Part shown: positions 29,357 through 41,616 of the stretch, in pieces
How positions within the stretch are numbered: position 1 is the stretch's first letter
How the letters are laid out: the number at the start of each line of letters is the position of its first letter
Origin: Mobula hypostoma
Lineage: Eukaryota
Direction of reading: 5' to 3'
Assembly (NCBI RefSeq): GCF_963921235.1
Contig: NC_086097.1
Coordinates: 20,772,001-20,836,000 of the forward strand
DNA length: 64,000 nucleotides
The notes under the pieces: model-generated
What the model was told of the DNA's origin: nothing
The model's database searches: none
What the model saw: the letters and a program-made list of their open reading frames with translations, nothing else
Translations under genes and position numbers: made by a program

Positions 29357-30187
29357 GCCCAGGATTTCTAGCATCTGCAGAATCTCGTATCATAGAATAT
29401 AATTTAATATCCATTTTTGAGACTGTGATGGTGAGCCATTGCCCACATTATAGTGAAGGCACCTTCATAGTGTTAGGTGAGGAGATCCAGGACTTTGTTC
29501 CAGTGATGATCATGGAACAAGGAACCTGTGGCTAGTGATATTCCTTGGGCTTTCTGTCTTTAACCTTCCAGTTGCAAGTGGCCAAGTTTTTGGGAGATGA
29601 TGCTGTAAATGATAGAGGGTGTGCGTAGTTAATGGGAATTCAATCAAGCTTGTTGCTCTGTCCTTGACCTTAACCTCTTTAGTGTTTCTGATTGACAAAG
29701 GAAAGATTAGATAGGCTGCGTAGTTTTTCCGGAAGCAGAGGGGTAATGATTTGATAGAAATATTTATTCAAAATTATCAAGGGGATTGTATTGGGTAAGT
29801 AGAATCATCTGTCTAAACTAAAAAGGTATAAGGTGAGCAACTCTCAAAAAGGTGGTCAGGCATCATCTATGTCAAATAATCAACCTGAAACACTGACTGT
29901 TTAATTCCCCTCCATTGATGCTGCCTTACCTGCTGAGTTCCTCCATTTAGTGTCAGTCACTCAAGGTTTCTATTATCTGCACAATCTCCTATGGGAGCCT
30001 TTAGAAAGGATCTGCTGGGTGATATTTTCCACACAGAGATCTGGTACGCTCTGCCTGAGGAGGTGTTGGAGGAAGGTGCCCTCATAATATTGAAGAAGGA
30101 CTGAGACAAGCACCTGACCTACCAAGGCATTGAGACTACATACCCTAATGGGGAGAATGGGACTAGTATAGTAGTATGGGTGTGGGG

Positions 30188-30747
30188 TGTATGGGGTGTC
30201 AGGGAGGGGTAGCACCTCTGGTGGGGTAACATGTCGCGTCCTTTTCAGGGCGGTTAGTCCACCTTTGGTCCCCACCTGGCACTCAGCTCTCACCTGTGAC
30301 TCCCCGTAGCTGTTTGCATGTGACAGCGGCCACATCCCGGGCAACGGCTTCGACAAGCCGGCTAAACCAGGTGAGGGTAGCCGACGGGTCTCAAACCCTC
30401 GGTGTGGTAGGGAGTTGTCTATCCCAGCATGTGAAGACAGACTCCGGCGGATTGAGTGGACGAGACCTATGGAAGGTCCAACGGTCAAGAAGGCGGTCTC
30501 TGCAAGCGTCGTGGAACGTGTAGAACAGGACAAGACACAGAAGACGTCCTGGTCATCCACTGCGTCTAGTCCCATCTCCAGCCGTCTAGACTCTGTCTTG
30601 CCACCGGATCCAGATGGGATTTGGGAAGAGAGAGCGAGGCCGACGCTGCGCAACTCTCCCTCACTTAAATCCAAATCACGCGCTAGTCTCCACACCATCA
30701 TAATGGTGTCGAGGTCCTCATCGACGTCAACGATGGACGAACAACCG
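30188..30747 (+). mobile_element. Young RTE-type non-autonomous retroelement
   Basis: CpG-rich relative to flanks; 11-bp TSD tgggtgtgggg (30177-30187 / 30748-30758); RTE-like end tcatcgacgtcaacgatggacgaacaac; no Pol III boxes seen. Confidence 0.75.
30193..30375 (+). ncRNA. Candidate HDV-like self-cleaving ribozyme
   Basis: P1 GGGGTGT (30193-99) / ACATCCC (30332-38); P2 CTCACCTG (30289-96) / CAGGTGAG (30368-75); L3-like TCCCCG; P1.1 GG (30339-40); P4 CGGCTT-CGAC-AAGCCG; J4/2 GCTAA with C30362. Confidence 0.6.
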
Positions 30748-31650
30748 TGGGTGTGGGGGGCTGTGTGGCCTGATTCTCTGCTGTACAACTCTCTGTGACT
30801 CTTTTTAATGGAATGGCTGCCAGACGATCTGCCAGCACTTGCATGTTGGAGGTTGGTTGTGGGTGCAGGGAGGGATTCAGTGATGGGGAGGTGGGCCGAT
30901 TATCCAAGAGGCAACTCCTCGAAGAGCTCAGCTCTCCCTCTCTGCAGCTTGGATCACACGCAGCTACCCAGAGTGGAGCCTGAACAATGGCCCTCCGACA
31001 CAGTCAGGACCCTCAAGTGAACTGTAATTTCCAGAATTACACTCCATGTCTCATTTTGTGCTCACCACAGTTCACATTTATACGAGACTATCAAAATTAG
31101 CTTCATTTGTCGTTTGTACATCAAAGCAGGCAGTGAAATACGTTGTCTTGTGTCAAATCAAATCAGTGAGGGATGTGCATACTTCTGGCACCAACATACT
31201 CACTAACCCTGGCCTGTATGTGTTTGAAATGTGGGAGGAAATTGGAGCACCCGGGGTGAACGTACAAACTCCTAACAGGCAGCAGAAGGTATCAAACCGG
31301 TGCTGTAAAGAGTTGCACTAGCCACTACGCTAGTGTGTGTCCCCTTTGAATTTAGATATAAAAACAAAACCTCCTTTACTTTGAAACCAATGCATTCAGA
31401 AATATATTTTCATGTTAGGAATGTATGAAATGAATAAAGTCCTTGCAGGTGCTGGGAGGGTTGACACTGGGAGACAGGAGGATCAGGGGCTGAGGACTGA
31501 GGTGAAGAAAGATTTGAGGGTTGTGAATGTGAGGGCCTCTTCTACCAGGAGAGCAGTGGCTGTTTGCACTTTAGAACATTCAGATCTGTCACTGGCACAT
31601 TGTTGGATGGCCAGAGAGAGTGGCACGGGGGAAGTAGAACTGAGACTGTG

Positions 31651-33682: not shown

Positions 33683-34291
<609 letters not shown>

Positions 34292-39796: not shown

Positions 39797-41616
39797 GAAA
39801 CATAGAAACATAGAAAATAGGTGCAGGAGTAGGCCATTCGGCCCTTCGAGCCTGCACCGCCATTTATTATGATCATGGCTGATCATCCAACTCAGAACCC
39901 CGCCCCAGCCTTCCCTCCATACACCCTGACCCCCATAGCCACAAGGGCCATATCTAACTCCCTCTTAAATATAGCCAATGAACTGGCCTCAACTGTTTCC
40001 TGTGGCAGAGAATTCCACAGATTCACCACTCTCTGTGTGAAGAAGTTTTTCCTAATCTCGGTCCTAAAAAGCTTCCCCTCTATCCTCAAACTGTGGCCCC
40101 TCATTCTGGACTTCCCCAACATCGGGAACAATCTTCCTGCATCTAGCCTGTCCAATCCCTTTAGGATCTTATACGTTTCAATCAGATCCCCCCTCAATCT
40201 TCTAAATTCCAATGAGTACAAGCCCAGTTCATCCAGTCTTTCTTCATATGAAAGTCCTGCCATCCCAGGAATCAATCTGGTGAACCTTCTTTGTACTCCC
40301 TCTATGGCAAGGATGTCTTTCCTCAGATTAGGGGACCAACACTGCACACAATACTCTAGGTGTGGTCTCACCAAGGCCTTGTACAACTGCAGTAGTACCT
40401 CCCTGCTCCTGTACTCGAATCCTCTCGCTATAAATGCCAGCATACCATTCGCCTTTTTCACCGCCTGCTGTACCTGCATGCCCACTTTCAATGACTGGTG
40501 TATAATGACACCCAGGTTTCGTTGCACCTCCCCTTTTCCTAATCGGCCACCATTCAGATAATAATCTGTTTTCCTATTTTTGCCACCAAAGTGGATAACT
40601 TCACATTTATCCACATTAAATTGCATCTGCCATGAATTTGCCCACTCACCCAACCTATCCAAGTCACCCTGCATCCTCTTAGCATCCTCCTCACAGCTAA
40701 CACTGCCACCCAGCTTCGTGTCATCCGCAAACTTGGAGATGCTGCATTTAATTCCCTCATCCAAGTCATTAATATATATTGTAAACAACTGGGGTCCCAG
40801 CACTGAGCCTTGCGGTACCCCACTAGTCACTGCCTGCCATTCTGTAAAGGTCCCGTTTATTCCCACTCTTTGCTTCCTGTCTGCTAACCAATTCTCCACC
40901 CACACCAATACCTTACCCCCAATACCGTGTGCTTTAAGTTTGCACACTAATCTCCTGTGTGGGACCTTGTCAAAAGCCTTTTGAAAATCCAAATATACCA
41001 CATCCACTGGTTCTCCCCTATCCACTCTACTAGTTACATCCTCAAAAAATTCTATGAGATTCGTCAGACATGATTTTCCTTTCACAAATCCATGCTGACT
41101 TTGTCCGATCATTTCACCGCTTTCCAAATGTGCTGTTATCACATCCTTGATAACTGACTCCAGCAGTTTCCCCACCCCGACGTTAGGCTAACCGGTCTAT
41201 AATTCCCCGGTTTCTCTCTCCCTCCTTTTTTAAAAAGTGGAGTTACATTAGCCACCCTCCAATCCTCAGGAACTAGTCCAGAATCTAACGAGTTTTGAAA
41301 AATTATCACTAATGCATCCACTATTTCTTGGGCTACTTCCTTAAGCACTCTAGGATGCAGACCATCTGGCCCTGGGGATTTATCTGCCTTCAATCCCTTC
41401 AATTTACCTAACACCACTTCCCTACTAACATGTATTTCGCTCAGTTCCTCCATCTCACTGGACCCTCTGTCCCCTACTATTTCTGGAAGATTATTTATGT
41501 CCTCCTTAGTGAAGACAGAACCAAAGTAATTATTCAATTGGTCTGCCATGTCCTTGCTCCCCATAATCAATTCACCTGTTTCTGTCTGGAGGGGACCTAC
41601 ATTTGTCTTTACCAAA
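39797..41616 (-). mobile_element. Young 5'-truncated CR1 LINE with near-intact reverse transcriptase, in an ism2 intron
   Basis: 427-aa ORF 39892-41175 (QHGF, YLDFQKAFDKVPH, GVPQGSVLGP, FADD) plus upstream ORF piece KSPGPDGLHPRVLKE...PGNYRPVSLTS; one frameshift near 41177; tail (tttctatg)n at 39797-39820. Confidence 0.95.

What the first reader, a model, noticed from the sequence alone, without database searches (positions are those of the whole stretch)
30193..30375. HDV-like ribozyme fold at the 5' end of a non-coding RTE-type element
Seen: nested pairings in HDV order, namely P1 GGGGUGU/ACAUCCC, P2 CUCACCUG/CAGGUGAG, P1.1 CC/GG, P4 CGGCUU/AAGCCG and J4/2 GCUAA (putative catalytic C30362). 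The predicted cut (5' of G30193) lies within about 5 nt of the left TSD. Atypical features are a ~90-nt J1/2, an extra hairpin GCUGU...ACAGC next to L3, and an A-C mismatch in P3. Established: RTE LINEs use HDV-like ribozymes to process their 5' ends. Inference: a promoterless non-autonomous retroelement released from host transcripts by self-cleavage, possibly with a variant fold.
Basis: partly seen in the sequence, partly recalled or inferred. Interest (0 to 1): 0.75.

Follow-up and report, generated by a model that had tools for sequence, protein, structure and literature searches.

The report
Ribozyme-headed retroposon, cut site shifted

Summary
The element spans 30184-30746 and has well over a thousand relatives in this genome (1,896 core-pattern matches, 0 in the control). 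It is an internal deletion of a ~4-kb endonuclease/reverse-transcriptase LINE found in the same genome. Copies start at G30184 (44 of 71 loci; 2 of 71 at G30193). Distant relatives show paired changes in P1, P2, P4 and the L3 hairpin (7 of 25 counted pairs, plus one P1 pair). The A-C in P3 is decay of this copy (27 of 30 copies have G-C), so this copy is probably inactive. A long structured J1/2 and ribozyme-headed two-ended retroposons are known. The 28-nt L3 with a hairpin falls outside the published descriptor, and I found no such build in print. Cleavage and promoterlessness are untested. The scan noted this family before on other copies in this genome and in other genomes. Verdict: new variant of a known kind.

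The parts
30177..30187 (+). Left target-site duplication TGGGTGTGGGG; its last four G are also the element's first four bases
   Evidence: Sequence; exact 11-bp repeat
30184..30746 (+). Whole non-autonomous retroposon copy, 563 bp, 2.5% from the majority of the 30 best copies
30184..30190 (+). P1 5' strand GGGGUGU; predicted cleavage 5' of G30184, the modal 5' end of the family
   Evidence: compensatory P1 pair in L228
30194..30284 (+).
   Evidence: MFE fold; an equivalent stem of different sequence in L152, L186, L228
30286..30296 (+). P2 5' strand (core 8 bp 30289-30296, extendable to 11 bp)
   Evidence: 3 of 8 pairs change on both sides
30298..30300 (+). P3 5' strand GAC; A30299 replaces the family G and breaks the middle pair
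   Evidence: 27 of 30 copies have G
30301..30307 (+). Canonical-like part of L3, UCCCCGU, matching the published TYYHCG-Y pattern; holds the P1.1 5' strand CC and the U20/G25 equivalents U30301 and G30306
   Evidence: Descriptor in supplement of PMC4870747; alignment
30309..30327 (+). Extra hairpin inside L3 (6 bp, -7.4 kcal/mol), between the U27-equivalent position and the P3 3' strand
   Evidence: 2 of 6 pairs change on both sides, both in L152
30329..30340 (+). P3 3' (30329-31), P1 3' (30332-38; U30335 replaces the family C, giving a G-U) and P1.1 3' GG (30339-40)
30345..30360 (+). P4 hairpin
   Evidence: 2 of 6 pairs change on both sides, 3 on one side
30361..30378 (+). J4/2 GCUAAAC with the predicted catalytic C30362, then P2 3' strand 30368-30378
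   Evidence: the C is kept in LINE copies picked by their endonuclease motif, not by the ribozyme
30379..30702 (+). Rest of the parent LINE's 5' untranslated region
   Evidence: 87-92% identity to L123-L127 over element positions 1 to about 521
30688..30713 (+). Stem-loop across the deletion junction: the 5' arm comes from the parent's 5' UTR, the 3' arm from its 3' end; loop 30699-30702
   Evidence: 11 bp in the family majority; C30691 breaks one pair here
30701..30746 (+). Last ~45 nt of the parent LINE and short (AAC/AACC)n tail
   Evidence: 80-87% identity to the 3' ends of L123-L127; tails
30748..30758 (+). Right target-site duplication

Best explanation
A two-ended, non-coding derivative of an RTE-type LINE whose 5' 192 nt are predicted to fold as an HDV-like ribozyme that likely cleaves 5' of G30184 and so sets the element's 5' end. 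Shown: the element consists of the first ~520 and last ~45 nt of a ~4-kb endonuclease/RT LINE in the same genome. Copies carry TSDs, short AAC/AACC tails and a sharp 5' boundary at G1 of P1. The helices covary across families. Inferred: a source copy is transcribed by read-through or from an internal promoter; P1.2 and the extended P2 bring P1 and P2 together; C30362 acts as the C75 equivalent; the LINE protein then binds the 3' end in trans and copies the RNA by target-primed reverse transcription, running off at G1. The L3 hairpin is likely extruded at the U27 position and leaves the U20-G25 core intact. This particular copy is likely weak or dead, because the middle P3 pair is broken.
For: Boundary at G1. 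Contigs of two other coded organisms also have loose ends before 30184 (117 and 10 contigs). The full-length parent copy L124 has its 11-bp TSD flush with G1. Covariation: 92.8% of cells paired, 7 of 25 pairs with changes on both sides, 0-1 of 500 shuffles as high on each measure, slid controls at most 47.5% paired; one P1 pair G-C to U-A in L228. In L152 and L186, BLAST similarity to the element is confined to the ribozyme core, and an endonuclease frame follows. A second LINE family in this genome begins with a different-sequence HDV fold with a canonical 7-nt L3. 5' junctions show microhomology and extra bases, as described for R2 elements cut at their exact 5' end (PMC3774820). No excess G at -1, as copying of a cap might give (4 of 41 against 21% background). 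Single P3 mutations nearly abolish HDV and CPEB3 cleavage (PMC9901934).
Against: No cleavage data. No raw RNA reads were offered, so RNA 5' ends were not seen. L3 is 28 nt against 7-8 nt in the published descriptor, which could impair the core. The nine aligned sequences were chosen by me. Six came from patterns that fix the P3, L3-start and J4/2 letters (and, for the three metagenome loci, P1.1), so invariance there is partly built in. The hairpin's double changes come from one sequence (L152). P4 is weak in L152 and L186. T at -1 in 27 of 41 full-length copies could also mean that some template RNAs began one base before G1. A loose descriptor gives 0.28 hits per shuffled window.
Confidence: 0.8

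Rival explanations
1. The 5' end is set by an internal promoter that starts transcription at or next to G30184. The HDV-like fold is inherited from the parent and is kept for another job (RNA stability, protein binding, translation of the parent ORF) or cleaves only as a back-up, as in the dual promoter/ribozyme head of L1Tc and NARTc.
For: The L1Tc/NARTc precedent (PMC3383444). Copies are dispersed, and this one is antisense to the nearest host exon found. Kojima considers bipartite LINEs very likely Pol II transcripts. T at -1 is enriched (27 of 41, p=1.5e-5).
Against: No extra-G signature at the junctions (4 of 41). The boundary coincides exactly with G1 of a 7-bp P1. The J4/2 cytosine is kept in LINE copies picked without reference to the ribozyme. 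Promoter and ribozyme are not exclusive.
Confidence: 0.12
2. One reading: P1 uses 30193-30199 and the RNA is cut 5' of G30193, as the main site or as a real second site.
For: The second GGGGTGT pairs 7 of 7 with the P1 3' strand. L051 and the full-length L123 start there with their own TSDs.
Against: Only 2 of 71 loci and at most 4 of 100 rows start there, with no peak above the truncation tail. It costs 12 kcal/mol. The equivalent 7-mer does not pair with P1 3' in L228, L152 or L186.
Confidence: 0.04
3. The L3 hairpin has disabled catalysis, and the fold is a structured, non-catalytic 5' leader descended from a ribozyme.
For: L3 is part of the active site and is 7-8 nt in the descriptor read. 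No tested L3-hairpin ribozyme turned up in searches.
Against: The first 7 nt of L3 still fit the canonical pattern, G25 is kept in 8 of 9 rows, and family 5' ends still fall at G1.
Confidence: 0.04

Closest known systems
[quoted passage not shown] 2011, PMC3308841, not held; seen only as cited in passages of PMC6765202 and section 23 of PMC5786205)
   Same: Nested double pseudoknot at the first base of a non-LTR element; predicted release from longer transcripts.
   Different: A 28-nt L3 carrying a 6-bp hairpin, outside the 7-8 nt L3 of the RNArobo descriptors. I could not check whether Ruminski's RTE examples include such an L3.
drz-Agam-2-1 with its P1.2 domain (Webb et al. 2016, PMC4908430; passages read; its link to RTE is recalled)
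   Same: Long structured J1/2 closed by a P1.2 helix with short linkers, and an extended P2 (11 bp here, 12 bp there): the 'pinch' architecture.
   Different: No L3 hairpin is mentioned in the passages read; different sequence and host.
Bipartite non-autonomous RTE LINEs such as RTESINE1/2, WALLSI3, MAR4_MD, Bov-A (Kojima 2018, PMC5786205; passages and section 23 read)
   Same: Only the 5' and 3' parts of an autonomous LINE, no ORF, original 5' end retained; Kojima suggests the ribozyme explains this.
   Different: Here parent and derivative are both located in one genome, and the junction sits in the loop of a stem formed by the parent's two ends. No sequence comparison with the named families was possible.
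R2 SIDEs of Drosophila (PMC3414825; passages read) and NARTc of Trypanosoma cruzi (PMC3383444; passages read)
   Same: Short internally deleted retroposons headed by an HDV-like ribozyme shown to cleave.
   Different: Different clades. SIDEs are rDNA site-specific; NARTc also has a proven internal promoter; cleavage is untested here.

Membership tests
HDV-like ribozyme | Nested double pseudoknot P1, P2, P3, P1.1, P4 in HDV order | tested here: met
   (family majority fully paired; this copy has one P3 mismatch)
HDV-like ribozyme | 7-bp P1 starting with a G at the cleavage site, which is the RNA 5' end | tested here: met
HDV-like ribozyme | L3 begins TYYHCG-Y (U20, P1.1 pyrimidines, G25) | tested here: met
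   UCCCCGU at 30301-30307 against the descriptor in the supplement of PMC4870747; sister families vary at the 4th, 5th and 7th positions
HDV-like ribozyme | L3 length 7-8 nt | tested here: not met
   28 nt with an inserted hairpin; hence filed as a variant that works like the family, not as a canonical member
HDV-like ribozyme | J4/2 CNRA with the catalytic C | tested here: met
   C30362-U-A-A; kept in LINE copies picked by the endonuclease motif
HDV-like ribozyme | Covariation of the helices | tested here: met
   P2 3 pairs, P4 2 pairs, L3 hairpin 2 pairs; P1 1 pair in one sequence; P3 and P1.1 do not covary in the set (partly fixed by the search patterns)
HDV-like ribozyme | Match to an Rfam HDV-type model | tested here: inconclusive
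   No match, but a canonical-L3 control with long J1/2 is missed too
HDV-like ribozyme | Mg2+-dependent self-cleavage leaving 5'-OH and 2',3'-cyclic phosphate, lost in the C-to-U mutant | not testable with these tools
   Needs a bench assay; only contigs, no raw RNA reads
Bipartite non-autonomous RTE LINE | 5' part from the 5' end and 3' part from the 3' end of one autonomous LINE | tested here: met
   5 of 5 fetched parent loci match both parts
Bipartite non-autonomous RTE LINE | No protein-coding frame | tested here: met
   All three sense frames of the majority carry stops; no Pfam hit for the two overlapping stop-free frames
Bipartite non-autonomous RTE LINE | TSDs and a short tandem-repeat tail (TPRT marks) | tested here: met
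   Exact TSD of 8 bp or more in 26 of 37 full-length copies with a located 3' end; AAC/AACC tails
Bipartite non-autonomous RTE LINE | Parent belongs to the RTE clade by RT phylogeny | not tested
   No tree built. The parent is ~4 kb with APE endonuclease then RT (Pfam) and a C2H2-like end (a lead); the RTE label rests on this layout and recalled motifs
Promoterless element relying on host co-transcription | No internal promoter | not testable with these tools
   Indirect only: no extra-G excess at -1; this copy is antisense to the nearest host exon

The most novel reading that the evidence does not exclude
A distinct subclass of HDV-like ribozyme with a sixth helix inside L3, spread across RTE-type lineages and missed by the published descriptors and by Rfam, in which the hairpin is needed for folding or rate. 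Its integration machinery also tends to leave U at position -1 of new copies, the fastest -1 base measured for the genomic HDV ribozyme, so each insertion would be primed for release.
Probability: 0.3. Interest if true: 0.65.

Novelty: new variant of a known kind. Interest (0 to 1): 0.43.

Why it matters
The strategy is known: ribozyme-defined 5' ends on RTE-type LINEs and on their two-ended derivatives. If the L3-hairpin form cleaves, it widens the accepted HDV fold at a loop that is part of the active site. It would also mean that descriptor surveys limited to a 7-8 nt L3 and a J1/2 of about 50 nt have missed a high-copy class. The same genome holds a LINE family with a canonical L3, which gives a natural comparison. 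The corrected cut site matters in practice: a construct starting near G30193 would lack the real P1 strand and the cleavage site.

Tried and rejected
Rfam scan: no HDV family; uninformative, since a control is missed too. Covariation among the 30 closest copies: too alike (0.9-2.5% from the majority), so diverged families were used. A pattern for families with a different P2 in the own genome gave 89 matches, nearly all mutated copies of the known families. External pattern scans gave 234 loci; 3 were real relatives (L228, L152, L186, all from metagenome contigs), L207 (E 0.001) was dropped as a probable chance match, and the other 230 gave no profile hit. The metagenome scan covered only 11 of 64 parts. 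Expression: no RNA holder listed on record, and contigs cannot show RNA ends. The tandem at L046/L047 first looked like 5' transduction from an uncleaved RNA; the shared variants fit a DNA-level circular permutation better, so it is not used as evidence on cleavage. The P2 column was mis-indexed and was redone. Atlas searches did not name the clade. Ruminski 2011 and Webb & Luptak 2011 were not held; their figures and supplements may already show an L3 insert.

Full report
Observation. A descriptor of my own finds this site and no other in the 64-kb window. It accepts two P1 registers, G30184 and G30193, and it fires 11 times in 40 dinucleotide shuffles of the window, so the pattern alone proves little. 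The 201-nt stretch folds at z = -2.0. Rfam has no HDV-type hit, but misses a canonical control as well.

The element. The 561-nt query has 3,995 first-look candidates in the window's 3.48-Gb genome; the 39 best other matches are 96-97% identical. A pattern over the ribozyme core has 1,896 exact matches against 0 in the control; this counts some sister-family copies and misses mutated ones. Copies end in short AAC or AACC tails, and 26 of 37 full-length copies with a located 3' end have an exact TSD of 8 bp or more. This copy runs 30184-30746 inside the 11-bp TSD TGGGTGTGGGG.

Copies share GGGGTGTAT before G30193. Of 30 loci picked by the core alone, 20 begin at 30184 and 1 at 30193. Of 71 distinct family loci (alignment score 300 or more, which drops heavily truncated copies), 44 begin at 30184, 63 within four bases and 2 at 30193. 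Of 100 listed copies, counted by eye with a few ambiguous rows, 67 reach 30184, 29 start at positions 2-8 and 4 at position 9 or later. Contigs from two other coded organisms also break off before 30184. In L228, L152 and L186 only the upstream 7-mer can pair with the P1 3' strand; in L228 it does so through a G-C to U-A change. Against this, L051 and the full-length L123 do start at the second repeat, so a rare second site is not excluded.

The parent. A recalled endonuclease motif gave 142 matches. Of the 30 loci returned, L121 was 90% identical to element positions 10-521 and ran on into the endonuclease frame. Five loci of that family, each about 4 kb, match the element's first ~520 nt (87-92%) and last ~45 nt (80-87%). 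They carry decayed endonuclease and RT frames (Pfam PF03372, PF00078). L124 has an 11-bp TSD flush with G1. The short element is thus an internal deletion. The junction lies in the 4-nt loop of a stem whose arms come from the parent's 5' UTR and 3' end. The RTE label rests on layout and recalled motifs; no tree was built.

Covariation. An older sister family (359 pattern matches; about 530 nt, mostly 67-77% identical over the long matches), a third small family and a second LINE family share the fold. Three of 234 external loci are true relatives. Two of them match the element only in the ribozyme core and are followed by an endonuclease frame (about 30% identity to the parent's). On nine hand-picked sequences, 92.8% of cells pair and 7 of 25 pairs change on both sides (P2 3, L3 hairpin 2, P4 2); 0-1 of 500 shuffles reach each measure, and slid structures pair at most 47.5%. 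Limits: the sequences are related; the search patterns fixed P3, the L3 start, J4/2 and, for the metagenome loci, P1.1; the hairpin's double changes are all from L152; and P4 is weak in L152 and L186. Free of that bias, LINE copies picked by the endonuclease motif keep the J4/2 cytosine. Another LINE family in this genome opens with an HDV fold of different sequence: P1 GUGUGUG/CACACAC, P3 GCC/GGC, a 7-nt L3 and a J1/2 of about 200 nt or more (8 of 9 copies parsed).

The three 'atypical' features. The P3 A-C is decay: 27 of 30 copies have G. Single changes in the 3-bp P3 leave almost no activity in HDV and CPEB3 (PMC9901934, passages), so this copy is probably inactive; 12 of 30 close copies keep all core pairs. 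The long J1/2 is known: a P1.2 helix with short linkers and an extended P2 speeds cleavage (PMC4908430, passages), and the corrected register gives this layout (3-nt and 1-nt linkers, 11-bp P2). The L3 hairpin is the real variant. The first 7 nt of L3 match the published TYYHCG-Y, and the hairpin follows; those descriptors allow 7-8 nt of L3 and about 51 nt of J1/2 (supplement of PMC4870747, passages). Searches (plus 51 and 71 for shark and marsupial RTE ribozymes) returned no paper on such an insert by title or abstract listing. The two most relevant papers were not held.

5' junctions. Among 41 full-length copies the base before G1 is T in 27 (background 33%, p = 1.5e-5) and G in 4 (background 21%). 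Where extra bases lie between an exact TSD and G1, they end in T in 10 of 13. This fits RT running off an uncapped RNA and adding bases, as described for R2 elements cut at their exact 5' end (PMC3774820, passages and section 12), and gives no sign of a copied cap. It could also mean that some templates began one base earlier. U at -1 is the fastest base for the genomic HDV ribozyme (PMC1874588, passages); a functional link is speculation.

Mechanism. Shown: composition, boundaries, parent, TPRT marks, covarying fold. Inferred (0.8): self-cleavage 5' of G1 defines the RNA, and the parent's protein mobilises it in trans. Open: where transcription starts. L1Tc/NARTc combine promoter and ribozyme (PMC3383444, passages), and this copy is antisense to an AMOP-domain exon at 33686-34291.

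Known context. HDV-like ribozymes on RTE and other non-LTR elements are established (PMC6765202, passages; PMC5786205, passages and section 23). Ribozyme-headed internally deleted elements are established for R2 (PMC3414825, passages) and L1Tc. PMC13708176 (passages) added nothing on RTE ribozymes. Earlier notes of this scan describe the same family on other copies, some with the same 9-nt correction. I had recorded the correction before seeing them, and they are not independent evidence.

Verdict. A real feature: a known strategy with a variant fold, a corrected cut site, and a probably dead copy. New variant of a known kind; interest 0.43.

Noticed in passing
L046/L047/L092 (G000:C1, about 21,776,200-21,777,420, minus strand); window 30115-30705: About 1 Mb away, two copies sit in tandem, joined by this window's own 69-nt left flank (100% identical; only two places in the genome). 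The first shares this copy's rare 3' variants, the second its 5' variants. This fits a circle of window DNA (30115-30705) re-integrated into another copy by a single crossover.
   Followed up: partly
window 30688-30713; L123, L124, L126: The deletion junction lies in the loop of an 11-bp stem formed by the parent's 5' UTR and its 3' end, about 3.3-3.8 kb apart in the full-length LINE.
   Followed up: partly
L096, L102, L108, L109, L112, L115, L117, L119: A separate LINE family starts with an HDV-like fold with a canonical 7-nt L3 and a J1/2 of about 200 nt or more; Rfam misses it in the one copy tested.
   Followed up: partly
L065, L068, L077: 5'-truncated copies of the older sister family share the same upstream flank, which looks like the end of a Tigger/pogo transposase (recalled); either a composite element or an insertion hot spot.
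   Followed up: no
window 29973-30899 (-): A 308-codon stop-free frame runs antisense through the element and is also open in the family majority (184 codons); no Pfam hit. Probably chance.
   Followed up: partly
window 33686-34291 (-): AMOP-domain exon (Pfam PF03782, E 1e-25), probably the last exon of an isthmin-type gene (recalled); the element lies about 3 kb beyond it, antisense.
   Followed up: no
window 39895-41187 (-): A 431-codon stop-free reverse transcriptase frame of another LINE (PF00078).
   Followed up: no
G000:C5:123,956,770-124,177,670: Eight near-identical old-family copies within about 220 kb, all on the same strand: probably a tandem segmental duplication.
   Followed up: no
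window 30040-30183 and 30759-30800: The two flanks read as one decayed 3' end of a CR1-type LINE into which the element inserted (recalled resemblance).
   Followed up: no
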